DNA of 63,223 nucleotides, the filler included, from Craspedostauros australis (lineage: Eukaryota), in the NCBI GenBank assembly GCA_030167865.1. It is 10 parts of 10 records of this genome, joined end to end, with 100 filler letters (N's around TTAATTAATTAA, not from the genome) between each part and the next. Parts side by side here need not be neighbours in the genome. Positions count along the whole stretch, not along the records: positions 1 to 26,060 come from JALAGF010001378.1; positions 26,161 to 36,432 come from JALAGF010001384.1; 8 more parts are not named here. One strand, given 5' to 3'. Shown in pieces: positions 8,580-61,698 of this stretch. Positions within the stretch are counted from its first letter, which is position 1. Each line of letters begins with the position of its first letter. A model generated the notes under the pieces. It saw only the letters and a program-made list of their open reading frames with translations, was not told where the DNA came from and made no database searches. The translations under genes and the position numbers were made by a program.

Positions 8580-10553
8580 ATGAAGCTGGACGCATCCGCT
8601 GCCGCGCTGGTCGTGGCATGCGCCGCCTTGTGCGCAGTCGAGACGTTGGCCTTCGTGCCTCAGAAGTTCATGCCTGCCTCGGGACGACGTGGCGTGTCAT
8701 CATCGCCATTGATCGGAACATCCACAACCATTGCATCCACCGAGACATCGAGCTCCGATGTCGCGGCAGGATCGGCAAAGGGCAGCCCGGTGGATTACGC
8801 CGCATACTCCAATGGATTCAAAACGGTGTTTGATGAAATCACGGCGAAGCAGTGCGCCCCGACGTTGGGCGAGATCCCTGCCGACATGGCACCCGGCACG
8901 TACTACCGCGTGGGACCTGCCATGTTCAGCGCCGGATCCATCGTCCCACCCAAGACCTCGATCATCCAACCGCGCGATGGACCACCGGTGCCGGACGGTC
9001 AGAATCAGAAGCGAATGGTCGCGCATCCTTTCGAGGGTGACGGCGGCATGCTCGCTGTCACCTTCCAGGGCAAGGAGCAATCGGAAGAGGTCACGACGCG
9101 TTTCCGATACGTGCGGACGTTGCCCTTCACCAACGAACGTCGCAAGGGACAGCGTCTCTACCGCTCCATGGATTCCACCAGAGAGCTGGGATCCGCCATC
9201 GGCGAAGGGCTGGGAAATGACCTCCACATGCCATTGTTCCGCCATCACTTGCAAACGGGTCTCAACAAGAACCGAAAGAACACATCCAACACCAGGGCCA
9301 TCTACTGGGGCAAGAGGTTGCTGTCCATGTGGGAAGGCGGCCAGCCAGTCAAGATGGACGCCTTGGCCTTGTCGACCGAAGGGCGTTCGCAGCTTGGCGG
9401 TGTGCTCAAGGAACCGGATTCCTTCGGCTGCCGCATGTGCGTCGATCCTGACAAAAAGCGTGCCGTGTTCTACGGCGTTGCGCAGTCGGCCGTGTCGTCG
9501 GAGATCACGACGTACGAATTCGATGAATCCTTCCGTCTCATCGAAGAGGGGGATGGCAAGGTGCAGCAGGACGTGCCCGGATTTGCCATCATCACGGACA
9601 TGGCGCTGACTGCAAACTACGCCGTCTTCGTCCAACCTGCAGCATCGACGAGCATGCAATTCCTGTTCAACAAAGAGCCGGGCAAGGTGCTCACCATCGA
9701 GAAAGAACCGGCTACCCTTCATCTCGTGCCACGCATCGGGAGCAAGAAGGAACCGCAGGCTTTGTCCATCCCATTCGATGGCGTCGTCGAGGCCAACATG
9801 CAGCTCATCAACGCGTACGAAGACGGCGATAACATCATCTTGGATGCCATTCGTTGCGACGGAACCAAAAAGCCGCAAGGCAACAGCGACAAGCCCATCC
9901 AATGGCCATGGGCGTCCACGGAGGCCGAGTACCAGTCCTACTCCTCCCAGCGATCCATGTGGCGATACACCATCAACAGCAAGACAGGATCCGTGGAGAA
10001 AAAGCAGATACTCGACACGCAGTGCTTCTTCGGCACAGTTCATCCAAATCAGAGCACCAAGGCCCACAAGCATGTTTACATCGCACTGGGCAGCCAAGGT
10101 GACGGCATCGCGCCGCCGCAAGGAATCGGGCGCCTGGATTGCGACACGAACGCGCTGGATTCCTGGATGCCGGAATCGTACCAATTTTGCGGTGAACCCA
10201 TGTTTGCGGAGAAGACGGACAGCAGCGACGAGAATGATGGCTACATCCTCACTGTCCTCTTCGATGGCAAGCAGGAACAGAGCGAGATGCTCATCTTTGA
10301 ATCGCTCGACATCGCGAAGGGACCCATCACTCGCATTCCGTTGGGCATTGGCATACCGCATGGTCTGCATGGAATTTGGACCACTTCCAAGGAAGCGCAG
10401 TGGGATGGCGAAGAAATCATGAGACGGGCCAAGCTGGCCGACAAGATGGAAAGCCGCGGTAATATGTGGAACGAGGTCAAGAGTGACTTTTCTGGTTTGG
10501 GTCTGCGATTCGACGACATGGAGGAGTACTTTGGTGATTCCTTCCTGTCCTAG
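8580..10553 (+). CDS. Carotenoid cleavage oxygenase (RPE65/CCD)-fold protein, plastid-targeted, with degenerate Fe ligands
   Basis: Signal peptide ending TLA-FVP. Motifs GTYYRVGP, HPFEGDG, KNTSNT, WEGGQP, GEPMF, DGYIL, PHGLHG. Confidence 0.88.
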   Translation: MKLDASAAALVVACAALCAVETLAFVPQKFMPASGRRGVSSSPLIGTSTTIASTETSSSDVAAGSAKGSPVDYAAYSNGFKTVFDEITAKQCAPTLGEIPADMAPGTYYRVGPAMFSAGSIVPPKTSIIQPRDGPPVPDGQNQKRMVAHPFEGDGGMLAVTFQGKEQSEEVTTRFRYVRTLPFTNERRKGQRLYRSMDSTRELGSAIGEGLGNDLHMPLFRHHLQTGLNKNRKNTSNTRAIYWGKRLLSMWEGGQPVKMDALALSTEGRSQLGGVLKEPDSFGCRMCVDPDKKRAVFYGVAQSAVSSEITTYEFDESFRLIEEGDGKVQQDVPGFAIITDMALTANYAVFVQPAASTSMQFLFNKEPGKVLTIEKEPATLHLVPRIGSKKEPQALSIPFDGVVEANMQLINAYEDGDNIILDAIRCDGTKKPQGNSDKPIQWPWASTEAEYQSYSSQRSMWRYTINSKTGSVEKKQILDTQCFFGTVHPNQSTKAHKHVYIALGSQGDGIAPPQGIGRLDCDTNALDSWMPESYQFCGEPMFAEKTDSSDENDGYILTVLFDGKQEQSEMLIFESLDIAKGPITRIPLGIGIPHGLHGIWTTSKEAQWDGEEIMRRAKLADKMESRGNMWNEVKSDFSGLGLRFDDMEEYFGDSFLS

Positions 10554-12841: not shown

Positions 12842-14803
12842 ATGAGCGCAGGCAACAAACGAGATCTCTCATCGCACGCGCAGCCGCAGGAGGCTGTGGT
12901 GACTCATTTTGATTGGAGCGCGAAGGTGGACTTTGCGTCTGGCACCATCTCCGCAGCGGCGACCTACCAAGTCCGCAAGGTCTCGCCAAGCGCCACGCAG
13001 GTGCATCTGGACACCTCCCATCTGCGCATTCAGTCGGTTCAGACCGTCAAGGGCGACAAGCTGAAGTACACGCTTCACGAACCGACCCCCAACAAGCCCC
13101 ATCTGGGTCAGAAGCTCTCCGTCGATCTGCCATTGGGCGATGGGGCGGCCAAGTCGGACACGGTCCAGATCACCGTGCTTTACTCCACAACGGAGAAGTG
13201 CAGCGCGTTGCAATGGCTCCCACCATCCCAAACGGCCGGGGGCAAGTACCCTTACCTCTTCAGCCAGTGCCAGGCTATCCACGCTCGTTCCCTCATCCCA
13301 TGTCAGGACTGCTGTGGCGTCAAGATGACCTACACGGCCACCGTCACCGTCCCCTCCTGGGCCACCTGCGTTATGTCCGCCGTTCTGCACAAGCAATCGA
13401 AGGATGCAGCGAGTGGGAACACCAACGTCTTTGAATGGAAGCAGGCCGTGCCCATCTCGTCTTACCTCTTCGCCATCGGCGTCGGTCAGATCGTCAAGAA
13501 GGACATCTCCAAGCGCTGCGCCATCTGGAGCGAACCCAGCATGGTCGAAGCTGCCGCGTACGACTTTGCGGAGACAGAGGAATTCCTGAAGATCGCCGAG
13601 GCCATCGCGGGCAAGGAGTACGTGTGGGGACGATACGACTTGCTCTGCTTGCCACCATCCTTTCCGTACGGAGGAATGGAGAATCCGTGCCTCACCTTCA
13701 TCACACCCACGTGTTTGTCGGGTGACCGATCTCTCGCGGATGTTGTCGCGCATGAGATCTCCCACTCGTGGACAGGCAACCTCGTCACCAACGCCACGTG
13801 GGACCACTTTTGGCTCAACGAAGGTTGGACGACATGGTTCGAGCGAAAGATCATGGCGCGCATCAAGAAGGATCCAAACTACCTCGATTTCGATGCCATC
13901 GGCGGACGGAAGGATCTGGATGACACCGTCAAGGAGATGCCGCCCCAGTTCACCAAGCTTGTCCTGGACATTGGCGACGGCGATCCAGACGAATCCTACT
14001 GCACGGTGGCATACGAGAAGGGCTTCACTCTGCTGCTGTCGCTGGAACGACGCGTGGGAACCCCGGCTTTCGAGAAGTTCTTCCAGGCCTACATCAACAA
14101 GTTCGCCTCCAAGACACTGACGTCCACAGACTTCAAGGATTTCTTCCTCCAACATTTCAAGGGCAACGCCAAGGTACAAGATGTAGATTGGGATGCCTGG
14201 CTGTACGGTTCTGGCATGGCACCGGAACTCCCACCCCTTGACACCACCTTGGCAGAGGCCTCCCAAAAGCTTGCTGATAGCTGGATGGCAGTTGACGCAG
14301 GCACCGTGGCTTCGTCGACGCTCGTGGATGGCATCAAGAGATGGTCGTCGCTGCAGACCACGTGCTTCTTGGATGCGCTGCAGATTGCAGCGACGTCGCC
14401 GTTGAAGATCTCCACCTTGACTGCCATGAACGGGGCCTACAAGTTCTCCGACAGCAAGAACTCAGAGATTCTGTTCCGATACTGCGAACTGGCCATCGCT
14501 GCGGAGGACAGCAGCATCATCCCAATGGCGCTGCACTTCATCACAACGCAGGGTCGCATGAAGTTCGTCCGCCCGCTCTACAAAGCATTGCACAAGTCCA
14601 AGATGGGCAAGGATATCGCGGTCTCCACCTTCTTGAAGAACAAGAGCTTCTACCACCCCATCTGCGCCAAGATGGTCTCCGGTGACCTCAAGGTTGAAAA
14701 CGAAAAGAAGTCTCAATCGTGGGAGATTCCGTACGGCATGATCGCAGCCGTCGGCGCTGTATCGGCCATTGCCGCCGTGCTGGTGTTGCGACGAAGAAAG
14801 TGA
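12842..14803 (+). CDS. LTA4H: Leukotriene A4 hydrolase / M1 leucyl aminopeptidase with C-terminal TM anchor
   Basis: SQCQAIHARS, YGGMENP, HEISH-x18-E (WLNEG), YEKG, QGRMKFVRPLY. Terminal hydrophobic helix followed by RRRK. Confidence 0.95.
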   Translation: MSAGNKRDLSSHAQPQEAVVTHFDWSAKVDFASGTISAAATYQVRKVSPSATQVHLDTSHLRIQSVQTVKGDKLKYTLHEPTPNKPHLGQKLSVDLPLGDGAAKSDTVQITVLYSTTEKCSALQWLPPSQTAGGKYPYLFSQCQAIHARSLIPCQDCCGVKMTYTATVTVPSWATCVMSAVLHKQSKDAASGNTNVFEWKQAVPISSYLFAIGVGQIVKKDISKRCAIWSEPSMVEAAAYDFAETEEFLKIAEAIAGKEYVWGRYDLLCLPPSFPYGGMENPCLTFITPTCLSGDRSLADVVAHEISHSWTGNLVTNATWDHFWLNEGWTTWFERKIMARIKKDPNYLDFDAIGGRKDLDDTVKEMPPQFTKLVLDIGDGDPDESYCTVAYEKGFTLLLSLERRVGTPAFEKFFQAYINKFASKTLTSTDFKDFFLQHFKGNAKVQDVDWDAWLYGSGMAPELPPLDTTLAEASQKLADSWMAVDAGTVASSTLVDGIKRWSSLQTTCFLDALQIAATSPLKISTLTAMNGAYKFSDSKNSEILFRYCELAIAAEDSSIIPMALHFITTQGRMKFVRPLYKALHKSKMGKDIAVSTFLKNKSFYHPICAKMVSGDLKVENEKKSQSWEIPYGMIAAVGAVSAIAAVLVLRRRK

Positions 14804-15063: not shown

Positions 15064-16362
15064 CTATCCTGTCTTCTTCCTCCTCGCTCTCGCCCATGTC
15101 AGAAATAATTTGCCATCATCAATCATTTCCCAGTTCGTGGCAAGGCTCGCAATGTTTTCATCTGCATTTGATTCCAACAGCCACTTGCATTCCGCGGTAC
15201 CATCGCTGTACGGAGTTACCTCGGCCTGTTGAAATCCAACGTAATGGCCGATGTACGCGTTTGTTGCCTTGTAAATCGCCTCCTTGAGACTGAATCGCAA
15301 CAGGACTTCTTCCTCCACCGTCACATCCTCCACGCCACCGAGCTCTGACATTTCATGTGGTGTTAAGATACGTTTGGCGATGTTGCGTTTCTGTACCTTG
15401 CTGGTCTCCTCCAAGTCCACTCCGATGGCCTCTTCACATGCATCCGTTGTGACTGTTGTTGTCGGCTTGACGACCGCCACGGCATATACATCACCTGTCG
15501 ATTTAAGCACCTTGTGAGTGATGGATCCGCAGTATCCTTCGGGCAATCGCGGTCGCCCATCGTCGTGGCATAAGATGGGAGCATGTTTGGAATTGTCATA
15601 TCCCAATGCAAGCCGCAATGCCAAACGCCCCAGCGCGAACGTTTCGACCTGCACCTTCCGATTGAGAATGCCGTACTCCAGTTCGTCGGGATGCAGCCAG
15701 GATGATATCCAGTGGTCATTAGCAGCATCAGCATCAATGTCGCGCAACTGCTCTAGTGTCAAGGAATGAGGTGATGAATCCCCAACGCTCTTCATTTGGA
15801 TTCCGATGCATCGAATGTCATCAGAAAGGGAACGATCCAACCATATGGAACATACGTTTGGGACAATGGATTGGAGGGTGGTCTGGTTACTTTCGTTTGC
15901 GTGGATGGATGAGTTTTCATCTCGAACGGAGCTGGAATAGCGTGCAAACTTCGACCGAGCTGGGTATCTTGGCTGTTGCAGACTCCAATAGTGCAGATTC
16001 GTTCTTGTGATGGTACCCGTGCGTGCAAACAACCGGTGCGTGCGATGGAATCGAGTGACGAATCCATACGCCGCCATCCTTGGATGGGTACTCATAGTGA
16101 TCAGGATTGCTGCGTTCAATACGATTGTCAACAACGGAACTTGCGGAAGATGGGGCGGATGGCGACGCCGTCTCTTTTGATAAGGACTGCTTTCAGAACA
16201 ATGCTCAGTTCTGGCCATGCCCGCGCTCGCGGCCATTGCTGTTGATGCCGCCGTTGTTGCCACCCTTGGTGTTGGTGCTGTCGCTGTTCTGAATATTGAG
16301 GTCTTCGAAATTGCGCCCTTCAGCTGATGATGTTGCGTTCTGGTTTGGCTCTGCACAGCCAT
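15064..16362 (-). CDS. 4'-phosphopantetheinyl transferase (EntD/Sfp type) with long N-terminal extension
   Basis: FALGRLALR, GRPRLPEGYCGSITHK, IGVDLE, RFSLKEAIYKA. The start is uncertain: the ORF is open to 16713 and has several Mets. A hydrophobic segment followed by AYG-FV may be a targeting signal. Confidence 0.88.
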   Translation of the reverse strand: MAVQSQTRTQHHQLKGAISKTSIFRTATAPTPRVATTAASTAMAASAGMARTEHCSESSPYQKRRRRHPPHLPQVPLLTIVLNAAILITMSTHPRMAAYGFVTRFHRTHRLFARTGTITRTNLHYWSLQQPRYPARSKFARYSSSVRDENSSIHANESNQTTLQSIVPNVCSIWLDRSLSDDIRCIGIQMKSVGDSSPHSLTLEQLRDIDADAANDHWISSWLHPDELEYGILNRKVQVETFALGRLALRLALGYDNSKHAPILCHDDGRPRLPEGYCGSITHKVLKSTGDVYAVAVVKPTTTVTTDACEEAIGVDLEETSKVQKRNIAKRILTPHEMSELGGVEDVTVEEEVLLRFSLKEAIYKATNAYIGHYVGFQQAEVTPYSDGTAECKWLLESNADENIASLATNWEMIDDGKLFLTWARARRKKTG

Positions 16363-17002
16363 GTCAACCAACAGCAATGTCCTTGTTGTTGCTGCGCTCG
16401 TATGGTGCTCAATCCGAAGAAGCGCAACAATCCTGGCAGCTGTACTCGTCGCTCTTTTCACTTTTCGAAGGTCGTGACAAGCGTTTTCTTCGACTTGAGC
16501 AGGGATGAGCGCACCCTGATTCTTTCCATGCTTTCGAGCCACAATGCCCTCTGATCTCCAGGTTGCATCACACTCTGCTTCAGCGTCATGAACAATGCAA
16601 AGGTTGTACTCTGTGCTTTTCGTGCTGCGCTGTATCGATGGATGTGTCGATGGAGGCAAACAACGATGATGAGAGAGTGGAGTGACGCCATTGCCTTCTG
16701 CGGTGGACATCACCCATCACGCAACGTCCTGCCAGCGACAAAGATTCCCACGTCTCGTCGAGTATCTTTTCCATCCGACGACGGAGTGACGAAAAGCCGA
16801 CCAAATTGAAGCTAGGCGGGTTTTCGACCATCTCCTGCCAACCGCATGTGGACTGCTCTGACAGTACTCTCTATAGTACTCGTAGAGAGTAAACCTACTC
16901 ATACCCGGATGTTATCTACTGAATTAACGAGTTACTGGGTTGCCGAATTTGCATGGAGTGGAGTACTCGCACAGTGCGATTGCTCTACTTGGCACCGACC
17001 AT

Positions 17003-19720
17003 CTACTTTGCAGCTTTTGACGCCTTCTTGACAGCCTTGTCGATTTCATCCACCGTGAGGAAGATCTGGCCACGGATATTCTCGTCCCAACCGTTGGTCC
17101 CATCCTCCACGTCGATGATGTACTTGCGCACCTCCTCCATCGTCTTGCCAATTCTGCGAGCGATGGGCTTCACCAGAATGCTCTGCGTGGCGGGGTTGTC
17201 AAGGTACAGACCCATTTGGGTCGTCACATCCGCCAGGCGATCCTCCAGTTCTGTCGCGTTCTTCTTCATCTGGTCCTCCACCTTCTTGCCATTGAAGAAG
17301 GACTGGGTCTTCAGCGTGTCAGAATCCACCTTGTGGCAGCTCTCAACTAGCGTGACGACCTCGTTTACCAACATCTTCGACGTGTGTTCAATGAAGGCGT
17401 TGCATGCAGAGCGGAGGGCATCCTCCAGATCGCGCTTGGAGTCCACTGACTCCTCCTGGACGGACACACCCTCCCGCAGCAACGTCACGAGCGCATTCTC
17501 CGTGCTCATGGAGAACAGGCGGCGGTTGCGATTGGCGAGGAATCGTGACACGGCCTTGCCCGCATCACTGAAATCCAGCTGGCGCTCCACCGATCGCAGC
17601 TTCACGTCGAATGGCGACAGTTGCTCACGGAGGATCTGCAATATCGTAGAGTGTGGTTAAATGAGGAAGACCACAAGTCACATTGAGGAATGTGAAGCAT
17701 GCATGGAGGCGAGTTGGTGAGAGAGAGAGAGAGAATTCATTTGAAGGGCCTGCTATGTGTCATGAGAGTATTTTCAAACACACAACACGCAGACGAAACT
17801 TACCAGAAGATGCTTGACGAGGAACAAGTCGGAATGCATGATGCCCTTGCGCTTCTCGATGTAACTTCCCGCATCCTTGAGACACCGCGTGCAGGACTGC
17901 ACGGATTGCAGTGCAATGTCCTCAAACACTCGCGCCTCGACGACACGGAACAGCTTGGATAGGATCTTGAGAACGCTTCGGATCGGCGGATACCAGGACT
18001 CGTAGACTTGCATCTGTCGCTGGATGGCGTCGTCGAAAGCATCGGTGGCGCCGTCAGCCTTGTCGTCTGCGTCATCCCCGCTGGCATCTTCCTTCTTCTT
18101 CTTGATCAGCTTGTCCGGGTAGTTGAGGTCCGACGTGGAGGCCTTGAAGCGCGTGACTTCCTTGGAGAGCGAACTGGTGGCACAGAAGATGAGTCGTTCC
18201 TGCGCATCTTCGATGACAGTCGAGACGGCACGCGCCGCGGCAGTTGTGGTCGGCGACGAACTTGCCAGTGCGCGTTCCTCGCGCAGCACGGACACGATCT
18301 GGCACAGCGTATCCAAATCGACCACCGTCACGAGTCCCCGTCGCACTGTTCTGTGCAAGGCCGTGCACAGGGAGGAGAGGTAGGTCTGGAATTCTGAGTC
18401 GTAGTAGCTGCCATCATCCTTCATGACCTGCGAACCCAACGACTTGGTGTCCTTTTCCTTCGATTCGCCGTCCTTCTTGGCTGTGGCATCCTTTGCGTCG
18501 TCCACCTTGCGATCTCCGAAGAAGTCAAGGTACAGCGACGTCTCGAGGGTGCAGAGCCGAATGAGAAAGACGCTAGCCAGGCGCGTCATGCCCACCAGAC
18601 CGTGCTGACTCTTGAGGTTCTCCATGTGAGTTCGAACCGTGTTCTTGAGCAAGGACTCGCGGCAGGTGCAGTACGTGTGCCTGCACAGCTGCATGAGTTC
18701 GTGGTACGCTTCGCCATTGTGCAGGCGTTTCTTGACCAAGCCGAGCAGTCTGTTGCTGCGGGACGAAATTCCGTGGAATCTCGTGTACACCAACGATGCC
18801 TCCAGACGGTCCGCGGCGATGGGTGCTTTGTTGAGATTGAGCGCCGATGTGATCTGCTCCGTCGTCGTGTTGAGCCGGTCCACCACGGCCTCGCGCACCA
18901 GAAAGAGGGCCGCCTCCTGCAACGCCAGAGAGCGTCGGAAGTACTCCAGGTTGCCGCTGACCTCCGTCGACTTGCTGCGCTTCGATTGCTTCTTGTACTC
19001 CTCCAGCGCCGCCTTGCCTCCGCACTCGCGCTCGAAGAAGGTGACGGCGTCGTTGATCTTGTCCAGGATCTCCACGAAGTCCTCGTTGTCCACCTTGACC
19101 TTGGCGAGACCGCGCACCACGGCGTTGCCCTTGAAGAGCACCCCCACGTGAACGCCCAGCTGATCCACCGAGTCGTAGTGCTTGAGGGGCATCCCGATCT
19201 CCTTGGCGTGGCGCGTGAGCATGGCCTCCTCCTCCTGCAGACGGTCGGCAGCGGCGGACAGCTCGCTGGAATGGCGGATGAGGTCGGCATGTCGGTTGGA
19301 GATGTCCTCCGCGATGTTCATGGACGCTCGCAGCGCCAGCCGCAGGGACGTGGAGTGCTTCAGCAGCGCGGTGGTGTGGTCCGTCGTCTGCAACGCCTTG
19401 CGCATGACGGCGTCCACCTCGCTGCCGCCCATGCCGGTCAAGAAGGACTGCTCCGCATCCTTGGGCGCGGAAACGGCACGAGCCAGGAAGTCCTTTTCGA
19501 TCTTGACGGCGTTGGCCGCGCCTTGCTTTCCCTTCGCCCTTGGTGCTTGCGTTGCGGGTCTACGCGCCGTCGGTCCTGCGGTCAGCTCCGCAATCCTCGA
19601 CAATCGCGACGTCTGCGCCGATGACCGCGGTGCGAAGGTCTCGTACGAGACGTTGGACGAGCTCGATCTGGGCTTGGGAGGTGGCAGTTGGGCCTGCCGT
19701 TGCGCGTCCATTGTTGCCAT
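17003..19720 (-). CDS. COG3: Conserved oligomeric Golgi complex subunit 3 (Sec34), 2 exons
   Basis: Exon 1 19720-17804, intron 17803-17636 (GTAAGT...TTGCAG), exon 2 17635-17003. Motifs DAQERLIF, DLNYPDKL, WYPP, LFLVKHLL|ILREQLSPFD, DSKRDLE. Confidence 0.92.
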
Positions 19721-20164: not shown

Positions 20165-22072
20165 CTACTTCCGACTCGTGCTCATGCTCATTCCCATATT
20201 GGCATTGGAGTCTGAATTGGGTTTGCTCCCGCCATAGTTCAGAAGCATTCCAGCTATTGTTCCGACCACGAATCCAACGCTGCCAATCCACAGTGGATGC
20301 TGAGCTTTCAATGCGGTCGCAAAACTCTGAAGGTACGAGTGCTGTTGCGTTGATTGAGTTTCCCGCTGATTCCCCCGTTGTTGCCCATGCTCCTGTTCCT
20401 GTCTCTGTCCCTGCTGATGTCGGAGTTGGTTCTTCTCCGTCTGCCTGGCAGGTCTGTGGGCTCGGTTGTAGGCCAACGCCAAACGATTATGCGCCTTCTG
20501 CACCTTGTCATTCTTCATGTCGGAGTGGGCTGTTCCGGCAGAGGATTTGCACATGATGATCCGGTTCACCGGGCTGATGCGTTGGTCGATGCACTTCATC
20601 CTCACCTCGTACGACTCGTTGGCCATCATCTTTCCAGCCAGCAGCAGATCCATCTGCGTGGCGAACGGGATCTGCAGATTCTTGCTGGTCATCTTCCAAG
20701 TCGATCCCTTCGACACGTCCTTCTGACAGCACGGCATCACGGCGGCGTGAACGCCGAATGACGTTGCAATCGACAGCGTCTCCTCGCTGAGGTGCTGGCA
20801 CGCGTGGCATGCCACGACCAAAACGCGTTGGCGACGCGTCGTGCAAAGGACATTGGACAATTCTGAAGGCAGCGCGGTCCTTAGACATTCATGGCGGAAA
20901 GCAAGCTGCTTCTCTTCGGGCAGGAAGGATTTCCATGCCCTCATCACGCCGTTGTTGCCCACCTGCGCAGGATCAACCACCACGGCTTGTCTTGCGGCCG
21001 TGACGATCAGAAACAGCGTTGCCAGGGCTCCATGGCCACCGGCCACATCGATGACCACATCGAACTTCTCTGTCTTCCAGAACTTGTTCACCGCATTGAG
21101 GAATGCGTACGACTCCTTGAACTCCTTGATGGAGGGGGAATGGATCTTCTCGCAATGAAGCGCATGGAATAGCCTCTGCTCCAAACTGAACTTCTTGCCT
21201 TGAGTCGCCTCTTCTGCTGCTCTTGGTGTTTCCGATAGTGTTGCAGGTTGAAGCGGGGCGGAAGATAGGGAACAATCGCGATTGCCACCATCGCTAACTT
21301 CGTTGTTGCTGACACTGTTGTTGTTGTTGTAGGAAGAAGCAATATCTTGACCTACTAGGAGTACTGATCCGTCGCTACCGCTTGCGCCGCCCCGGGTCCT
21401 AACATCCAGGTAATGGTGCAGGATGGTGTTGACAGATTGGCCACCCTGCTTGAAATGGTACCACCCGTCGATCGTGAGGGGTGCATCCGATGAGAGGAGC
21501 AATGTCAGCCACAACGAATCATCGGCGAACATGTTGTCCAGCGGAATGTTGTACCAATCATCGAACCACTTTGGAGTTATCTCCTCGCATTCTTGAACGT
21601 CAGCGGGCCTGTCTGCCAAATCGATCTGAAACAGATGCACGACCATCTCCACTTCGTCGTTCTGGAACGTGAAGCGTTGGGTTCCCACCTTACTCGCAGC
21701 CATCTCTGCTTGCTTGATGTCGATGTTGGTTTCCTCCTTCAATTCTCTGCAGGCGCCGTTCACTACGGACTCTCCGGGATCCACCTTGCCACCGAACGAA
21801 TTGAACATCCCCTTGCCGAATCCCCGGTTCTTGTGACCGAGCAGGATGTTTCGCTTCTCATTTCTCACAACGATGATCAAGGTGTACTCTTTCAACTTCG
21901 ACACCGCGTTGGTTTCGGCGGTTGCCTCTCGAAACGCATCCAGCGAGTCATGGCTCTTTCCCAATCTGGTGGCTGGCAATCGGTTGACGAAGAGCTCCTG
22001 CTTCTTCTTGATCATGCTCGACATGTCGTGTAATGCAAGGAGAACGCTGATCGATGGACCCAACAGTTGCAT
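20165..22072 (-). CDS. Nudix hydrolase (MTH1/NUDT1-like) fused to a SAM-dependent methyltransferase, with C-terminal TM
   Basis: ILLGHKNRGFGKG, Nudix box GGKVDPGESVVNGACRELKEETNI, EEITPKWF, IPLDNMFADD. Then VIDVAGGHGALA, VVACHACQHL, AVMPCC (Methyltransf_32-like). Single uninterrupted 635-aa ORF. Confidence 0.85.
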   Translation of the reverse strand: MQLLGPSISVLLALHDMSSMIKKKQELFVNRLPATRLGKSHDSLDAFREATAETNAVSKLKEYTLIIVVRNEKRNILLGHKNRGFGKGMFNSFGGKVDPGESVVNGACRELKEETNIDIKQAEMAASKVGTQRFTFQNDEVEMVVHLFQIDLADRPADVQECEEITPKWFDDWYNIPLDNMFADDSLWLTLLLSSDAPLTIDGWYHFKQGGQSVNTILHHYLDVRTRGGASGSDGSVLLVGQDIASSYNNNNSVSNNEVSDGGNRDCSLSSAPLQPATLSETPRAAEEATQGKKFSLEQRLFHALHCEKIHSPSIKEFKESYAFLNAVNKFWKTEKFDVVIDVAGGHGALATLFLIVTAARQAVVVDPAQVGNNGVMRAWKSFLPEEKQLAFRHECLRTALPSELSNVLCTTRRQRVLVVACHACQHLSEETLSIATSFGVHAAVMPCCQKDVSKGSTWKMTSKNLQIPFATQMDLLLAGKMMANESYEVRMKCIDQRISPVNRIIMCKSSAGTAHSDMKNDKVQKAHNRLALAYNRAHRPARQTEKNQLRHQQGQRQEQEHGQQRGNQRETQSTQQHSYLQSFATALKAQHPLWIGSVGFVVGTIAGMLLNYGGSKPNSDSNANMGMSMSTSRK

Positions 22073-23780: not shown

Positions 23781-24221
23781 TCTCTATCTAAGGTAGGTAC
23801 TAGTTTAGCTCTACTGCGTTATGCCAACCGCTTCCAAAGCAACGTGAGCGTGAACCAAGATGACGATATCATTGCATGGCATGACGACGGCATGCTGACA
23901 GCAACAGTACTACAGCTATTACCAACAGTCAATACCACGCAGCTTCATTCGGATGCACTTGGTGCGTGGCACAGATTGCATCCGTAGGTTGGAGTGGATG
24001 GGTAGGCAAGAGCAAGGGTCTACTAGAACAGTATCGTACTCGAAGAGTATCCATACGAGTATTGTATTGCATCATGTTGTATTGCATTATATTGCATTGC
24101 GCCGAGTCCATGGTTACATAATATGGGGAAGGATGAGTCGACAATCCATGCTCATTCATTTTCTAATGCTACCTAATGCTGCTCAGACCAGACCCCTTGG
24201 AGTACTCTACTCTGTGCTTCC

Positions 24222-26060
24222 TCATACTTCCTCATCTCGCAATCCATCAGATATTGACTGTGATCTCTTCGTGTCTGGTGCTTGCATGTCGTTAACCATC
24301 TTCCATGGGGCGTGCTCCACCAGGGCGGCGCCCTTCGTTGCTGAGCCCTTCCTCATCAGCGCAAACGACATCTGGTGCATCAGACCATCGATGTAGGATG
24401 GTCCCAAGGACAGCGTGGAAAACACACCGAAATGACCGCAGACGATGGAGTCATCGATCACTGTCCGATCAGCAAATGTGAGCAGCGGAGCGTCATAGAT
24501 GCGGGATCCAAAGTACAACATCTTTCCCTGGATGGTCGCCCCTCGGAATCGCAACGCAGCGTTCATCATCGGTGTGCCCCAAACAACTGCCTCGAAGGAC
24601 CACGACTGAAAGAAATGGCTGTAGGACAAGTAGACCATATACAATGAAATCGACCATGGTCCTCCGCGTTCAACGCCTCCCAAGAGAGTGATGGTGACGA
24701 TTACTCGATAGAGAACGAGCCAGATGAGGGTCTGGATGATGGTGGATGCCGCAATGGCAACCGGAATCAGCGCCATTGTCGTGTCTGGCTTGAGTATGAT
24801 CGCCAACAGCTCATATGATGGGATGAGGCTGGCCGCCACTGCCGCAAGGATGATGATATGCAGCAGGGTGTTGTTGATCATGATCATGAAGAACTGGGAT
24901 GCGGAGAGAGGCACGTTGTTTGGATGATGCTCGGTGTTGATCATATCGCTGGTGACGTGGGCGCCAGGAGTCACCATGGCTCTGCGGATGGTCACACCAG
25001 GGCCGCATGCCAGCGTCATGCCGACGGTGCTGTCTTCGATGGTGATCGCCTTGTATTGGCCATCTTCTTCGACATCGAGGTCACAAAAGGAGATGAAGGA
25101 TCGCTTGACCGTGACGAGGTCCAGCTTGGATGGGGGGAACAGGATTGTCACCGCCCTCGATCTCATATCGATGTCCATGCCGTGTGCCATGAGGACGAGG
25201 TTCCAAAGTTGGGAGTACAATGTCAAGTCGAGCATCAGTGTTGTCCCGACGAAGAAGTGGAAGTCACAAGCCCAGTCAGCAAACTTGGAGAATGTTCCTG
25301 TCCGCGCTGGACCGGATCGCTTCTTGCCGATTAGCACCCACTTGAGGATGATGCTGGTGATCACGAAGCAGACGGACGTGAGGCCAAAGAAGACGATCCA
25401 GTAGACGATGGGGGAGTACCTCCAATCTGCAAGCCCATCTCCGACCAACTGATCAGCAGCCACGAAGCATGCGAAGGCGAAGTACAGCTCGATGGCGAGC
25501 CAAACAAGCTTCATCGTTCCCAGCACGATCGATGGGCTGGTGGATTTGTCGGATGCCGTGTCCCCACTCGCTGTTCCAGTTGCGGATGCATCGTCATCGC
25601 CCTTGAGAGTCGACGAAGGAGCATCGACAAATGCTGGGTTGCCTCTGATCGAGGTGTTTGGTGGTGCTTGAGCACCTTCCACGAGCACGGACATGCGCTG
25701 GACCTGGCAGCCAGAGCCGACGCTGGTTCCAGCAAGCAAGGCGCCATTGACCGTAGCGTTGGATCCAACCTGAGTCTTGCGAAACCTCACGCTGGGGCCT
25801 TCCTGCTCATCCTTCCACGGGCCNAACATGCGGCATCGGATGTGCGTGTTGACCGTGGCGCCAGCACCAACCTTGACCAGGTCAAACTCCCGGACGGTCC
25901 CGTTCACGCTGGCCGAGCGATGGATGTTGGCACCCATCAGGTAGTAGAACAGCGTCATCAAAGGCGTGTTGCCGATGATGCGGCCGACGAAGCGCTCCCA
26001 GATATCGACCAACCGATCGACGAACCACCACCTGATGAAATAGATGTTGGTCTGATTGGC
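24222..26060 (-). CDS. Epsilon-poly-L-lysine synthetase (Pls)-like NRPS, C-terminal membrane/acyltransferase-like region; 5' part lies in an assembly gap
   Basis: Frame open from the gap edge at 26060: IYFIRWWFVDRL...GNTPLMTLFYYLMGANI...DLVKVG + hexapeptide repeats...RGNPA; then TM pair ending ILKWVLIGK; second module (LWNLVLMAHGMDI...LDLVTV); TM pair; third module (WGTPMMNAALRFRGATIQG...LLTFADRTVI). Confidence 0.8.
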   Translation of the reverse strand, partial: ANQTNIYFIRWWFVDRLVDIWERFVGRIIGNTPLMTLFYYLMGANIHRSASVNGTVREFDLVKVGAGATVNTHIRCRMXGPWKDEQEGPSVRFRKTQVGSNATVNGALLAGTSVGSGCQVQRMSVLVEGAQAPPNTSIRGNPAFVDAPSSTLKGDDDASATGTASGDTASDKSTSPSIVLGTMKLVWLAIELYFAFACFVAADQLVGDGLADWRYSPIVYWIVFFGLTSVCFVITSIILKWVLIGKKRSGPARTGTFSKFADWACDFHFFVGTTLMLDLTLYSQLWNLVLMAHGMDIDMRSRAVTILFPPSKLDLVTVKRSFISFCDLDVEEDGQYKAITIEDSTVGMTLACGPGVTIRRAMVTPGAHVTSDMINTEHHPNNVPLSASQFFMIMINNTLLHIIILAAVAASLIPSYELLAIILKPDTTMALIPVAIAASTIIQTLIWLVLYRVIVTITLLGGVERGGPWSISLYMVYLSYSHFFQSWSFEAVVWGTPMMNAALRFRGATIQGKMLYFGSRIYDAPLLTFADRTVIDDSIVCGHFGVFSTLSLGPSYIDGLMHQMSFALMRKGSATKGAALVEHAPWKMVNDMQAPDTKRSQSISDGLRDEEV

Positions 26061-26294
26061 NNNNNNNNNNNNNNNNNNNNNNNNNNNNNNNNNNNNNNNN
26101 NNNNTTAATTAATTAANNNNNNNNNNNNNNNNNNNNNNNNNNNNNNNNNNNNNNNNNNNNTGAGACTGGTCAACGTGGAGTGTTGTTGGCTGTCCTGGCA
26201 TGGCAAATTTTGTTGTTGCCGCGCGCAGTCATCATCGTGTCTTGTGGAGGAGGAGTCACACGATGTCTCTTCCTCTGTTGTGACTCGTTTTTCA

Positions 26295-26475
26295 TGACGT
26301 GGAATCCGTTCCATGTGACGTAGAAGACGGATCAGCGAGAGTAAACACGAAATAGCTCTAAATATCCAATCGCCGTTTCTCCCAAAAGCAAGCAAACCAG
26401 TGGCAACAAGGGGCCAAAACTCCACAACTAGTGATATCGCGACACCGTTTTACATTGAGTGCAGCTAGTACGTCA
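26295..26475. promoter_or_regulatory. Three CRE/CCRE-like motifs upstream of the beta-CA
   Basis: TGACGT 26295-26300, TGACGT 26316-26321, ACGTCA 26470-26475. These are the same hexamers as the CO2/cAMP-responsive elements of the P. tricornutum ptca1 promoter. Confidence 0.4.
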
Positions 26476-26752
26476 GCGTGCTGGGAACAACAAGATCCGT
26501 TGCGTGAGAGACATCTCTGTGCGTCCTCTGACATTGATGTTCGGTTGTTTTGTTGTGCGAAACGCTTCGGCTCCCACGAAGCCGGCACACCGCATCAACA
26601 CCTTGTCTCTTCAGGATCTCCTCTTGACACCCTCCGTTGCCATCAACATCATCAGCATCAAGAACCGCATCAACATCTCCACCAGCGATGTTGTGATCAA
26701 CTTCGCAAGCCACCAACCGTCCAACAAAGGAAGAAAAAAGAACAAGAGAATC

Positions 26753-27800
26753 ATGATGAAGATCTCCGTCGCCCTCGCTTTCCTCGCTGCCCTGCAGTCA
26801 GCCGCCGCCTTCGTCGGCGTCGCGCCAACCACCAAGGCATCCACGAGCGCCCTGTCGGCTGCCAACCTGCCACCACCCTCCGCTGACAAATCCAAGCTCC
26901 AGGAAATCTTCTACCAGAACCAGGCCTGGAAGGCGTCCAAGATCTCCGAGGATCCCGCCTTCTTCCAAAGGCTCGGATCCACCCACTCTCCGGAATTCAT
27001 GTGGATCGGAAGCGCCGATGCTCGCGTCCCACCGAACGTCATCATCGGCGAGGATGCCGGAAACGTCTTCGTGCACCGCAATATCGCCAACATGGTCGTC
27101 AATACCGACACCAACCTCATGAGCGCCTTGCAGTACGGAGTCAACTACCTCAAGGTCAAGCACATCATCGTCTGCGGCAACTACGAGTGCGAAGGTGTCC
27201 GCGCCGCTGAGGCTGCCAAAGACTTTGTCGCTCCACTCGAGCTGTGGCTGCGAAACGTTCGTGATGTGTGAGTTCTATTTCTGCGTTGCGTTGCGATGTC
27301 TGTTGCGGTTGCCGTCGCGGTTGCTGTTGTATTACTGTATTCGCTGCATTCATGGGTACGACTGGCGCCATCAGCCTTCTCACCGTCATACAAACGCTCG
27401 TCCCAGTTGCTACCACGCCACGCTCACAACATCAACGTGTGACGAACAACGAATACTGTACTCGTCAAACAATCCACCCACACATACTAACACCCATACA
27501 TACCATCACAACAGCTACGCCAAGCACCGCGAGGAGCTCGACGCCATCGAGGACGCCGATGCCCGCCACCGCCGATTAGTCGACCTCAACGTCATCCAGC
27601 AGTGCGTCAACGTCCTCAAGACCGGCGCCGTCCAGAGACGACGCGCTGCGACTTGGGCCGAGGGTGAGCCATACACCGCACCGCTCGTCCACGCCGTCGT
27701 CTTCGATCCAAAGACCGGCGATCTCAGGCGTCTTGACATTGACTTTGAAGAGTACAGAGACGAGCTCAGCAACGTGTACGGCCTTTACTTGGTCGATTAG
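26753..27800 (+). CDS. Plastid beta-carbonic anhydrase-like protein (PtCA1/2-like) with substituted Zn ligands; 2 exons
   Basis: Exon 1 26753-27267, intron 27268-27514 (GTGAGT...ACAG), exon 2 27515-27800; 266 aa. Presequence SAAA-FVG. Motifs WIGSADARVP, FVHRNIAN, IIVCGNYECEG, VRDV|YAKHREEL, LVDLNVIQQ. Confidence 0.9.
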
Positions 27801-36432: not shown

Positions 36433-36532
36433 NNNNNNNNNNNNNNNNNNNNNNNNNNNNNNNNNNNNNNNNNNNNTTAATTAATTAANNNNNNNNNNNN
36501 NNNNNNNNNNNNNNNNNNNNNNNNNNNNNNNN

Positions 36533-47390: not shown

Positions 47391-47490
47391 NNNNNNNNNN
47401 NNNNNNNNNNNNNNNNNNNNNNNNNNNNNNNNNNTTAATTAATTAANNNNNNNNNNNNNNNNNNNNNNNNNNNNNNNNNNNNNNNNNNNN

Positions 47491-53704: not shown

Positions 53705-54250
53705 NNNNNNNNNNNNNNNNNNNNNNNNNNNNNNNNNNNNNNNNNNNNTTAATTAATTAANNNNNNNNNNNNNNNNNNNNNNNNNNNNNNNNNNNNNNNN
53801 NNNNAAGAGCAATAGCGTAACCCTATCTACGATTTTCAGGATTTCAGGCGATTCACTTTTCTGTCTCAACGCAGTGTATTAAGTCCCGTTAAATTAGGTC
53901 ACGATCTAGAAAAGTGAAAATCGGACAAAATGTTGGGTGTTCCAGAACTTCGCTTGTGTCCATTCATCGTCCAGTCTCCATCAAGGGCACCAACGAAGAA
54001 CACAGCGATATTCATTACCGTTTCCAAGTGTTTCTCTCATCTCCTTCACTGTACGTCTGGAGCTATTTCGAGCTGTCGGCACAACAGCGTCCAAACTTGC
54101 GCGATTTCTCAAAGGCCGTGACCAGAAACGACACAGCGCTCGCGAGCATCCCAGCGAACCGTTTGTTGCCACGAAGCAGAGCACCAGCACTCACATCGCA
54201 TTCCCCTGCTCTTCGTCCTTGCAGCTGAACGTGCCTACGTCCTCGCTTCA

Positions 54251-61510: not shown

Positions 61511-61698
61511 TACGCATCGCGCTGTACAGCGTTCTGAGCATGTGTGCAGACAAAATGTCAATCATATTCCAATCCAACGCTTCGATGACTCCGAGCCTNN
61601 NNNNNNNNNNNNNNNNNNNNNNNNNNNNNNNNNNNNNNNNNNTTAATTAATTAANNNNNNNNNNNNNNNNNNNNNNNNNNNNNNNNNNNNNNNNNNNN

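What the first reader, a model, noticed from the sequence alone, without database searches (positions are those of the whole stretch)
24222..26201. Pls-type (epsilon-poly-L-lysine synthetase-like) membrane NRPS in a diatom: candidate amino-acid homopolymer system
Seen: three tandem acyltransferase-like/left-handed beta-helix modules separated by TM pairs, with the motifs YFIRWW, G(N)TP...GA.I, GNPA and KWVLIG. Known: this is the C1-C2-C3/TM architecture of Streptomyces Pls (TIGR02353-type NRPS terminal domain), which polymerises amino acids via isopeptide bonds; homologs are described in bacteria and some fungi, and I know of no characterised algal example. The A and T domains would fall in the gap at 26061-26160. 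An ATG at 26201 (MPGQPTTLHVDQS) reads into that gap and may be the start. Inference: the diatom may make a cationic homopolymer. Polylysine and polyamines precipitate silica in vitro and epsilon-PL is antimicrobial, so biosilica, adhesive or anti-bacterial roles are plausible but untested. The third module looks shortened.
Basis: partly seen in the sequence, partly recalled or inferred. Interest (0 to 1): 0.9.

Follow-up and report, generated by a model that had tools for sequence, protein, structure and literature searches.

The report
Truncated Pls-like membrane acyltransferase gene, FAAL-type family
This is the tail end of an algal gene whose membrane-bound part distantly resembles the bacterial enzyme that makes polylysine, but its relatives carry a fatty-acid-activating head instead of an amino-acid one, so a polylysine-like product is unlikely.

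Summary
The minus-strand ORF 24222-26060 (612 aa) has three mutually homologous left-handed beta-helix modules separated by two TM hairpins, and all four named motifs are present. It is a real but distant homolog of the Pls/PosA terminal domain (TIGR02353 E 3.7e-14, 52 bits against a cut-off of 423).

The rest of the interpretation needs correcting.
- **The gap is artificial.** 26061-26160 is a 44N+TTAATTAATTAA+44N joint, one of 9 in the window. The ATG at 26201 lies on another scaffold.
- **Much more than 100 bp is missing.** About 770-900 residues are absent, and nothing elsewhere in the window encodes them.
- **The relatives are not amino-acid NRPSs.** All 31 close relatives scanned have an AMP-binding domain of the fatty-acyl-AMP-ligase (FAAL) type, and most have an ACP-like carrier. 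Bona fide bacterial Pls/PosA proteins have amino-acid adenylation domains and form a separate clade.

The gene belongs to an uncharacterised protist family (diatom, pelagophyte, choanoflagellate, chytrid) built as FAAL-ACP-6TM/3xLbH.

My best reading is a carrier-dependent membrane acyltransferase for a fatty or carboxylic acid, not a cationic amino-acid polymerase. It is a new variant of a known kind, of moderate interest.

The parts
24222..26060 (-). 3' part of the gene: 612 codons plus a TGA stop (24222-24224). It is open at its 5' end, where the scaffold stops.
   Evidence: The tblastn matches of the full-length relatives are collinear over 24216-26060 with no break, so there is no intron in this part.
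25611..26060 (-). Module 1 (C1-like), residues 1-150: two helices followed by a left-handed beta-helix. It holds the motifs YFIRWW, GNTP..GANI, REFDL (D60 = 25881-25883) and GNPA.
   Evidence: AF2 model. VIA-align gives Z 12.3 to maltose O-acetyltransferase 3srt_A (145 aligned, rmsd 3.5) and Z 11-12 to sugar N-acyl/acetyltransferases. TIGR02353 profile positions 79-356 match residues 7-297.
25533..25610 (-). Low-confidence linker rich in Ser/Thr/Asp/Ala, residues 151-176.
   Evidence: pLDDT is under 50 for residues 156-172.
25323..25532 (-). TM hairpin, equivalent to TM3-TM4 of the full-length family, residues 177-246. It ends in KWVLIGKK.
   Evidence: hydropathy; helices 175-206 and 216-244 in the model.
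24903..25322 (-). Module 2 (C2-like, diverged), residues 247-386. It holds the GMDID and PPSKLDL motifs.
   Evidence: hhalign m1-m2 95.5%; model.
24669..24902 (-). TM hairpin, equivalent to TM5-TM6, residues 387-464.
   Evidence: hydropathy; helices 387-422 and 431-458 in the model.
24225..24668 (-). Module 3 (C3-like), residues 465-612. It holds GTP..GATI and the universally conserved His543 (24432-24434).
   Evidence: hhalign m1-m3 96.8%. H543 is conserved in 28 of 29 close, 24 of 24 intermediate and 19 of 20 bacterial rows.
26061..26160 (.). Artificial scaffold joint (44 N + TTAATTAATTAA + 44 N). It is not a sequencing gap inside the gene.
   Evidence: The same 100-base construct occurs 9 times in the window, against 0 expected.
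15064..16713 (-). Sfp-type 4'-phosphopantetheinyl transferase gene on the same scaffold. It is a possible activator of the carrier domain, but no link has been shown.
   Evidence: Pfam ACPS 5.2e-13 and 4PPT_N 2.5e-8. A PPTase also lies about 3 kb from a bacterial Pls-type gene in locus L021.

Best explanation
The ORF is the C-terminal 612 residues of a roughly 1,400-1,500-residue eukaryotic enzyme. Its missing N-terminal part, judged from relatives, is a fatty-acyl-AMP-ligase-like adenylating domain, an ACP-like carrier and a first TM hairpin. The part present is a membrane-anchored triple left-handed-beta-helix acyltransferase domain, remotely homologous to the polymerising C-terminal domain of Pls/PosA synthetases.

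Proposed mechanism, with its basis:
- The FAAL-like domain adenylates a fatty or other carboxylic acid and loads it on the phosphopantetheine arm of its own carrier. This is inferred from relatives.
- An even number of TM helices lies between every pair of soluble parts, so all three LbH modules sit on the same side of the membrane as the carrier. This follows from the sequence.
- The tri-LbH domain transfers the carrier-bound acyl group to an amine or hydroxyl of a so far unknown acceptor. Candidate catalytic residues are the His543 and Asp60 positions conserved across the superfamily. This step is inferred.
- The product is more likely an acylated lipid or amine than a homopoly(amino acid).

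The copy in this assembly is cut by a scaffold end, not by biology as far as can be seen.
For: - **Homology.** TIGR02353 scores E 3.7e-14. The HMMER scan of 1.84e9 representatives gave 435 hits, 83 of them at E<=1e-30, the best with 42% identity over residues 5-590.
- **Architecture of close relatives (31 scanned).** AMP-binding is present in 31 of 31, the DIP2/FAAL-type C-subdomain PF23024 in 24 of 31, PF13193 in 0 of 31 and PP-binding in 22 of 31.
- **FAAL-type adenylating domain.** FAAL families top the NCBIfam lists at about 245-302 bits for the 5 full-length diatom-clade relatives, while TIGR01733 reaches only 107-157 against a cut-off of 317. PDB sequence hits of P0010 are FAALs at 1.6e-65 to 1.7e-40 (plus McyG at 8.8e-39), against NRPS A domains at 2.9e-26 or weaker. 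The consensus motifs are YHD.GL, YGLAE, KTTSGKI and a GLSS carrier, against SFDMW, YGPTE and LGGHS in bacterial Pls/PosA.
- **Contrast set.** Bacterial Pls/PosA proteins score 604-647 bits on TIGR02353 and 367-380 on TIGR01733. Of 120 listed, 86 carry PF13193 and none carries PF23024. Their A domain matches the solved Pls A domain 7wew at 1.6e-79.
- **Tree of 74 C-terminal domains.** The window lies in a 30-row clade (SH-aLRT 99). The 20 bacterial rows sit on one side of a branch of length 2.69 (SH-aLRT 100).
- **Fold.** The LbH acyltransferase fold is supported by VIA-align Z 12.3 and by Foldseek's best rows.
- **Conserved columns.** Thirteen columns are conserved in all three groups, including D60 and H543.
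- **First hairpin.** A TM1-TM2 pair is present upstream in 24 of 24 full-length close relatives.
Against: - The window's own A and T domains are absent, so their type is inferred only from relatives of 30-42% identity.
- No member of this eukaryotic clade has a known substrate or product, and I found no biochemical evidence.
- The FAAL assignment rests on overall similarity and motifs. All FAAL NCBIfam scores are below those models' curated cut-offs, and the FAAL-specific insertion and helix were not examined.
- The conserved tri-module layout and conserved residues shared with true polymerases would also fit an iterative, polymerising reaction.
- Modules 2 and 3 are strongly diverged from bacterial C2/C3. 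In bacterial proteins only the module-1 part of my profile matches, and it matches three times. So a different or lost activity in those modules is possible.
- The bacterial sample in the tree was drawn only from relatives of one protein (P0159). It holds no Streptomyces Pls or fungal Epls.
Confidence: 0.6

Rival explanations
1. One reading: a Pls-type NRPS that activates a basic amino acid and polymerises it through isopeptide bonds into a cationic homopolymer.
For: The domain layout is the same (TM pairs and three tandem modules), and the homology to TIGR02353 is real. Thirteen columns are conserved with bona fide members, including H543. All characterised members of the family that I recall make homopoly(amino acid)s; the Pls and Epls architecture and product are described in PMC7179176 (passages read).
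Against: The TIGR02353 score is 52 bits against a cut-off of 423. None of the 31 close relatives has the NRPS-type C-subdomain PF13193. TIGR01733 is far below cut-off while FAAL models lead. The PDB neighbours of the relative's A domain are FAALs and do not include the Pls A domain 7wew. The window clade is separate from the bacterial Pls/PosA clade.
Confidence: 0.1
2. The Pls-like iterative mechanism is kept but the monomer has changed. The FAAL-like domain loads a bifunctional acid (hydroxy- or amino-fatty acid), and the tri-LbH domain polymerises it into a polyester or polyamide that is extruded at the membrane.
For: The whole six-TM/three-module polymerase scaffold is conserved in distant protist lineages. 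Three relatives carry an FAD-dependent oxidoreductase/amine-oxidase-like insert between the A and T domains (P0004, P0014, P0031), which could modify the tethered acid.
Against: There is no direct evidence. No FAAL is known to me to feed a polymerase. Modules 2 and 3 are much diverged from those of true polymerases.
Confidence: 0.12
3. The copy is a dead fragment: a truncated pseudogene or a relic at a repeat-rich scaffold end, with no function.
For: Only the 3' 40% of the expected gene is present. The assembly holds one ambiguous base in it. No sequencing run could be listed for it, so expression is unknown.
Against: There are 612 codons without a stop or frameshift. The frame is collinear with relatives to their C-termini. 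The residues that are invariant or nearly invariant in relatives are kept in the window copy. The truncation coincides exactly with an artificial scaffold joint.
Confidence: 0.08
4. Bacterial contamination of the assembly.
For: Pls/PosA proteins are mostly bacterial.
Against: The same scaffold (1-26060) carries eukaryote-type genes, namely COG3 Golgi complex subunit, LTA4 hydrolase, RPE65, TGT and a NUDIX-methyltransferase fusion. The best named relatives are from a diatom, and the nearest Atlas cluster is 94% Eukaryota, commonest Bacillariophyta. The gene falls in the eukaryotic FAAL-type clade.
Confidence: 0.01

Closest known systems
[quoted passage not shown]
   Same: A membrane enzyme with a carrier-tethered acyl donor and a C-terminal domain of TM pairs alternating with three tandem soluble modules (PMC7179176, passages read). 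The remote sequence homology and the conserved W-W, D-L, G and H columns are shared.
   Different: Pls and Epls have a lysine-specific NRPS A domain and are 51% identical to each other (PMC7179176). The window protein scores only 52 bits on the family model, and its relatives carry FAAL-like A domains and ACP-like carriers.
Bacterial Pls/PosA family NRPSs (TIGR02353), such as those of Mucilaginibacter, Chitinophaga and Chryseobacterium (P0221, P0240, P0280)
   Same: The order A - T - TM pair - C1 - TM pair - C2 - TM pair - C3 and the hydrophobic pairs sit at matching places.
   Different: They score 604-647 bits on TIGR02353 and 367-380 on TIGR01733, and carry PF13193. They form a separate clade on a branch of length 2.69. 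Their three modules all resemble the window's module 1, whereas the window's modules 2 and 3 have diverged.
Fatty acyl-AMP ligases with a fused or cognate ACP (FadD32, FadD28, EcFAAL and other FAAL-ACP didomain loaders)
   Same: The adenylating domain of the relatives is closest to these in both PDB and NCBIfam searches. A carrier follows it, as in FAAL-ACP didomains described in PMC11837247 (passages read).
   Different: Known FAALs hand over to PKS/NRPS modules or stand alone. None described in the papers I read is fused to a Pls-type membrane domain. The window itself lacks this part.
Trimeric LbH acyltransferases, including the acyl-ACP-dependent LpxA and LpxD
   Same: Module 1 has the left-handed beta-helix fold, with Z 12.3 to maltose O-acetyltransferase and Z 7.6-8.6 to LpxA/LpxD entries. 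An acyl donor carried on phosphopantetheine is precedented for LpxA/LpxD (established knowledge).
   Different: Here three LbH modules lie in one chain with TM hairpins between them. Whether they pack as a pseudo-trimer was not tested. Pfam hexapeptide models do not reach threshold.
DIP2 (Disco-interacting protein 2) FAAL-like proteins of opisthokonts
   Same: The relatives' A domains match the DIP2-like C-subdomain model PF23024.
   Different: DIP2 has a DMAP1-binding domain plus two tandem FAAL-like domains and no LbH membrane domain (PMC8460268, passages and supplementary file 4 read).

Membership tests
Pls/PosA family NRPS (TIGR02353 terminal domain) | Score at or above the curated cut-off of the family model (423.1 bits), with full-length coverage of its 695 positions. 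| tested here: not met
   The window protein scores 52 bits, E 3.7e-14, covering only profile positions 79-356. Close-clade fragments score 38-95 bits. True members score 578-647 bits over positions 1-695.
Pls/PosA family NRPS (TIGR02353 terminal domain) | Six TM helices in three pairs that alternate with three tandem soluble modules C1-C3. | tested here: met
   The window holds two TM pairs and three homologous modules. The first pair is lost with the scaffold end but is present in 24 of 24 full-length close relatives.
Pls/PosA family NRPS (TIGR02353 terminal domain) | An N-terminal amino-acid adenylation domain of NRPS type. | tested here: not met
   This cannot be tested on the window itself because the domain is missing. 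In relatives, TIGR01733 scores 107-157 against a cut-off of 317, PF13193 is present in 0 of 31, and FAAL models and FAAL structures lead. True members score 367-380 on TIGR01733, and 86 of 120 carry PF13193.
Pls/PosA family NRPS (TIGR02353 terminal domain) | A thiolation (PCP) domain between the A domain and the membrane domain. | tested here: inconclusive
   The domain is missing in the window. PP-binding matches at E<=0.01 in 22 of 31 close relatives, several of them under Pfam's cut-off. Their consensus is GLSS (ACP-like) rather than LGGHS.
Pls/PosA family NRPS (TIGR02353 terminal domain) | The product is a homopoly(amino acid) made by iterative isopeptide bond formation. | not testable with these tools
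   This needs biochemistry or metabolite analysis.
Fatty acyl-AMP ligase (FAAL), for the A domain of the family | Closest similarity to FAAL models and structures rather than to acyl-CoA ligases or NRPS A domains. | tested here: met
   Met for relatives only. FAAL subfamilies score 245-302 bits in the full-length diatom-clade relatives, all below the models' own curated cut-offs. PDB FAALs match at 1.6e-65 to 1.7e-40. The motifs YHD.GL, YGLAE and KTTSGKI are present; that these motifs are typical of FAALs is recalled.
Fatty acyl-AMP ligase (FAAL), for the A domain of the family | The FAAL-specific insertion and FAAL-specific helix that exclude CoA (PMC8460268). | not tested
   Extra columns relative to bacterial A domains are visible after the YGLAE motif. 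They were not mapped on a FAAL structure.
Left-handed beta-helix (hexapeptide) acyltransferases | An LbH fold. | tested here: met
   For module 1, VIA-align gives Z 12.3 (3srt_A, 145 aligned, rmsd 3.5) and 40 chains at Z>=8, and the rows shown are nearly all LbH-fold proteins. Foldseek's best rows are LbH acyltransferases and gamma-carbonic anhydrases, none at E<=1e-3. Modules 2 and 3 are linked to module 1 by hhalign. The structural search barely tested them on their own.
Left-handed beta-helix (hexapeptide) acyltransferases | A trimer with active sites at subunit interfaces (here it would be a pseudo-trimer of the three modules). | not tested
A pTM of 0.88 says only that the relative placement of the domains is confident.

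The most novel reading that the evidence does not exclude
Protists, with diatoms in front, have re-tooled the Pls polymerase scaffold for lipidic monomers. A FAAL-ACP head feeds a six-TM/triple-LbH machine that either polymerises a hydroxy- or amino-fatty acid into a membrane-extruded polyester or polyamide, or N-acylates polyamines. Either outcome would be a biosynthetic route and product class not yet described in eukaryotes.
Probability: 0.15. Interest if true: 0.85.

Novelty: new variant of a known kind. Interest (0 to 1): 0.55.

Why it matters
All Pls/PosA-type enzymes whose product I know make antimicrobial homopoly(amino acid)s; this is recalled, and I read it only for Pls and Epls. This finding points to a sister family spread across distant protists (diatom, pelagophyte, choanoflagellate, chytrid). 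In that family the same membrane-embedded transfer machine is coupled to a fatty-acid-type loader.

A 2026 survey reports that diatoms have the most FAALs per genome among eukaryotes and gives them no function (PMC12820801). This architecture gives some of those FAALs a testable role. A defined product, whether an acylated lipid or amine or a new polymer, would add a new reaction to algal lipid or cell-surface chemistry. It would also give enzymologists a natural experiment on how the Pls scaffold selects donor and acceptor.

The particular copy in this window is incomplete and adds little beyond flagging the family.

Tried and rejected
- **Whole-genome search:** no genome is held for this window.
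- **Sequencing runs:** none was listed for 24222-26060 and no RNA holder was listed, so expression and the missing 5' part could not be examined.
- **Earlier findings of this scan:** nothing by place, sequence or words.
- **Missing 5' part:** tblastn of all 159 proteins then held against the window matched only 24216-26060. No A or T domain lies on any of the other pieces.
- **PDB by sequence:** the window protein gives only weak LbH or gamma-carbonic-anhydrase rows at E>=0.11. No chain covers the C-terminal half of a true Pls/PosA protein either, so no solved structure of this domain was found. Foldseek gave no match at E<=1e-3.
- **Related loci:** A 7-row alignment on metagenome contigs gave 31 loci. 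Neighbours in the eukaryote-like loci (mitochondrial carrier, pyruvate kinase) said nothing about function. Two high-GC bacterial loci had amino-acid-type Pls genes, one beside a branched-chain amino-acid ABC transporter and one near a PPTase.
- **Asp235-type test for an alpha-amino-binding residue:** rejected as uninformative. The D of the FAAL-type YHD motif aligns with the D of the NRPS FD motif.
- **Literature:** 0 papers hold 'TIGR02353', and 0 hold 'poly-L-lysine synthetase' with 'diatom'. The FAAL papers I read in passages (PMC8460268 with its supplementary file 4, PMC11837247, PMC12820801) do not mention a FAAL fused to a Pls-type or hexapeptide membrane domain. The supplementary figures and tables of PMC12820801 that list eukaryotic multidomain signatures could not be seen in full (one file is cut), so the architecture may be tabulated there.
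- **Neighbour ORF 3109-4959:** its Atlas look-alikes are chlorophyte and streptophyte clusters. That fits an alga but does not show a diatom.
Full report
**What is in the sequence**

On the minus strand, 26060 down to 24225 is one open frame of 612 codons. It ends in TGA at 24224-24222 and holds one X from an N at 25824. Module 3 has the counterpart GTP...GATI.

Hydropathy gives two pairs of hydrophobic segments, at 177-206/215-246 and 387-424/427-464.

An AlphaFold2 model built on a 48-row alignment is confident (mean pLDDT 90, pTM 0.88). It shows the unit [two TM helices]-[long helix + short helix]-[beta-rich block] repeated along the chain. Only a Ser/Thr/Asp-rich linker (156-172) and the two ends are disordered.

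Profile-profile comparison shows the three soluble modules to be homologous to each other: m1-m2 95.5% (E 1.6e-8), m1-m3 96.8% (E 3e-10), m2-m3 80.5% (E 1.3e-5).

The remark that module 3 looks shortened is not borne out. The frame aligns to within about 3-50 residues of relatives' C-termini, and true family members also end with module 3.

**The gap is not a gap in the gene**

The stretch 26061-26160 is 44 N + TTAATTAATTAA + 44 N. The same 100-base construct, whose core is TTAATTAATTAA, occurs 9 times in the window, where none is expected by chance. The window is therefore a chain of at least ten scaffolds joined artificially, and the gene simply runs off the end of its scaffold at 26060.

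The ATG at 26201 (MPGQPTTLHVDQS) exists. It even falls in the same frame if the 100 bases are counted. But it lies on the next scaffold, just upstream of a plus-strand beta-carbonic-anhydrase gene.

By the relatives, 770-900 residues are missing; the alignment starts at residue 896 of P0010, 811 of P0013 and 773 of P0015. A tblastn of every relative against the window matches only 24216-26060. The A and T domains are thus neither in the gap nor elsewhere in the window.

**Relation to Pls/PosA**

NCBIfam gives TIGR02353 (Pls/PosA family NRPS terminal domain) as the only meaningful family. The hit has E 3.7e-14 but only 52 bits against a curated cut-off of 423.1, and it covers profile positions 79-356 of 695. 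Pfam gives only sub-threshold LbH hits.

A full HMMER scan of 1.84 billion representatives found 435 proteins at E<=1e-3 and 83 at E<=1e-30. The best, P0010, is 42% identical over residues 5-590. Among the weakest listed hits is P0159 (E 1.1e-16). It is a bona fide TIGR02353 member, with 578.5 bits over profile positions 2-695. The homology is therefore real but distant. On TIGR02353, close relatives score 38-95 bits, an intermediate group 90-207, and true members 578-647.

**What the whole protein looks like in relatives**

I scanned 31 proteins of the close group with Pfam (6, 25).
- AMP-binding is present in 31 of 31.
- The DIP2-like (FAAL-type) C-terminal subdomain PF23024 is present in 24 of 31.
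- The usual NRPS/acyl-CoA-ligase C-subdomain PF13193 is present in 0 of 31.
- PP-binding is present in 22 of 31, several under Pfam's cut-off.
- A pair of hydrophobic segments precedes module 1 in 24 of 24 full-length members.

The family is therefore A - T - TM pair - C1 - TM pair - C2 - TM pair - C3, as in Pls (PMC7179176, passages read).

The A domain, however, is not of the amino-acid type.
- NCBIfam puts FAAL families first, at about 245-302 bits in the 5 full-length diatom-clade relatives. These scores are below those models' own cut-offs. TIGR01733 (amino-acid adenylation) reaches only 107-157 bits against a cut-off of 317.4.
- The solved-structure neighbours of P0010 are FAALs: 7r7e at 1.6e-65, then 3kxw, FadD32, FadD23, FadD28 and EcFAAL 3pbk, ranging down to 1.7e-40 (plus McyG at 8.8e-39). 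NRPS A domains appear at 2.9e-26 or weaker.
- Group consensus motifs are YHD.GL, YGLAE, KTTSGKI and a GLSS carrier. That these are typical of FAALs and ACPs is recalled.

The contrast set behaves oppositely. Bacterial Pls/PosA proteins (P0221, P0240, P0280) score 604-647 bits on TIGR02353 and 367-380 on TIGR01733. Of 120 listed relatives of P0159, 86 carry PF13193 and none carries PF23024. Their consensus is SFDMW, YGPTE and LGGHS. P0221's A domain matches NRPS A domains (LgrA at 3.4e-150) and the solved A domain of epsilon-poly-L-lysine synthase, 7wew, at 1.6e-79.

Some relatives add an FAD-oxidoreductase/amine-oxidase-like insert between A and T (P0004, P0014, P0031), an alpha/beta hydrolase (P0014) or a ketosynthase (P0122). 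This is company that fits acyl rather than peptide chemistry.

**Tree, conserved residues and fold**

I built a maximum-likelihood tree of 74 C-terminal domains: the window, 29 close, 24 intermediate and 20 bacterial rows. The bacterial rows were picked only from relatives of P0159. The tree used 596 columns and the quick search.
- The window is sister to P0010 (SH-aLRT 99).
- It sits inside a 30-row clade (SH-aLRT 99) that also holds the Seminavis robusta proteins.
- All 20 bacterial rows lie on one side of a branch of length 2.69 (SH-aLRT 100).

Thirteen columns are conserved in all three groups: W11, W12, T32, G43, D60, L61, P142, G294, G347, P414, G495, G507 and H543. His543 in module 3 is kept in 28/29, 24/24 and 19/20 rows. 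Together with Asp60 in module 1, it is the best candidate for a catalytic residue. This is inference, by analogy with the general-base His of LbH acyltransferases (established knowledge).

In bacterial proteins, the module-1 part of my profile matches three times, once per module. The window clade's modules 2 and 3 have no direct bacterial match, so they have diverged.

Structure searches place module 1 in the LbH acyltransferase fold.
- VIA-align gives Z 12.3 to maltose O-acetyltransferase 3srt_A (145 aligned, rmsd 3.5), Z 11-12 to sugar N-acyl/acetyltransferases, and Z 7.6-8.6 to LpxA/LpxD.
- Foldseek's best rows are of the same kind but none reaches E 1e-3.
- I found no solved structure of a Pls-type C-terminal domain.

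**Organism and contamination**

The scaffold 1-26060 also encodes COG3, an LTA4-hydrolase-type M1 peptidase, an RPE65-type oxygenase, TGT, a NUDIX-methyltransferase fusion and an Sfp-type PPTase. It is eukaryotic.

Named relatives come from the diatom Seminavis robusta (30-32% identity), the chytrid Gorgonomyces haynaldii, the choanoflagellate Salpingoeca kvevrii and the pelagophyte Aureoumbra lagunensis. One further NCBI eukaryotic record is named FadD28. The nearest ESM-Atlas cluster is 94% Eukaryota, commonest Bacillariophyta. A diatom origin is thus likely but not proven here.

**How it most likely works**

Shown:
- The retained part is a membrane-anchored triple-LbH domain homologous to the Pls polymerising domain.
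- The soluble modules are separated by an even number of TM helices, so all lie on one side of the membrane.

Inferred from relatives:
- A FAAL-like domain activates a carboxylic, probably fatty, acid and loads it on its own ACP-like carrier. According to PMC12820801, all characterised FAALs load fatty acids on holo-ACP (passage read).

Inferred by analogy with Pls and with acyl-ACP-dependent LbH enzymes:
- The tri-LbH domain transfers the tethered acyl group to an amine or hydroxyl acceptor at the membrane.

An unfunctionalised fatty acid has no nucleophile, so a homopolymer is not expected unless the monomer is a hydroxy- or amino-acid. I give 0.6 to this reading as a whole. The identity of the domain is much surer than the chemistry. 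I give 0.1 to the amino-acid homopolymer and 0.12 to a lipidic polymer.

**Comparison with what is known, and novelty**

The gene fails membership of the Pls/PosA family by the model's cut-off, and its relatives fail by A-domain type. It does share that family's architecture and conserved core. It is best described as a member of an uncharacterised eukaryotic sister family, FAAL-ACP-6TM/3xLbH.

I found no description of this fusion.
- Searches for TIGR02353, and for poly-L-lysine synthetase with diatom, returned nothing.
- The eLife FAAL survey and its table of eukaryotic FAAL-like architectures do not list it.
- A 2025 review does not mention it.
- The 2026 FAALPred paper reports that diatoms have the most FAALs among eukaryotes (2.9 per genome; 16 in Seminavis) and mentions 'FAAL-NRPS' arrangements in chytrids and others without detail. 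Its supplementary tables could not be read in full, so the architecture may be tabulated there.

**Limits**

- The window's own A and T domains are unknown.
- No expression data could be had.
- The bacterial sample in the tree is narrow.
- The FAAL-specific insertion and helix, and the pseudo-trimer packing, were not tested.
- No biochemical datum exists for any member of the clade.

Noticed in passing
window 26061-26160, 36433-36532, 47391-47490, 49690-49789, 51052-51151, 52300-52399, 53705-53804, 57479-57578, 61599-61698: There are nine identical artificial joints (44 N + TTAATTAATTAA + 44 N). The window is a chain of at least ten scaffolds, which get short (1-4 kb) towards its end. Adjacency across any joint means nothing.
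   Followed up: yes
window 15064-16713 (-): An Sfp-type 4'-phosphopantetheinyl transferase (ACPS + 4PPT_N) lies about 7.5 kb from the 3' end of the Pls-like gene on the same scaffold. A PPTase also sits about 3 kb from a bacterial Pls-type gene in metagenome locus L021. This could be a functional pairing or chance.
   Followed up: partly
window 26459-27800 (+): A beta-carbonic anhydrase gene is split over two ORFs (26459-27271 and 27195-27800), which suggests an intron. Its N-terminus (MMKISVALAFLAALQSAAAF...) looks like a signal peptide with an A-F cleavage motif of the kind used for complex plastids; this is recalled and was not tested.
   Followed up: no
window 8580-10553 (+), 12842-14803 (+), 17774-19720 (-), 20165-22072 (-): Long single-exon eukaryotic genes: an RPE65-type carotenoid oxygenase, an LTA4-hydrolase-type M1 peptidase, COG3, and a NUDIX-methyltransferase fusion.
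   Followed up: partly
window 49742-51049 (-): A retroelement fragment (Pol polyprotein beta-barrel domain) lies on one of the short scaffolds.
   Followed up: no
proteins P0004, P0014, P0031, P0122 (relatives, not in the window): Some family members carry an FAD-dependent oxidoreductase/amine-oxidase-like insert between the A domain and the carrier. P0014 also has a C-terminal alpha/beta hydrolase, and P0122 has a ketosynthase. The eLife FAAL paper notes plant FAAL-like domains fused to HemY, the same flavoenzyme superfamily (the superfamily link is recalled).
   Followed up: no
locus L029 3317-8288 and 7661-11809: In a high-GC bacterial metagenome contig, an amino-acid-type Pls-like gene sits directly beside a branched-chain amino-acid ABC transporter set (binding protein, two permeases, ATPase).
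   Followed up: no
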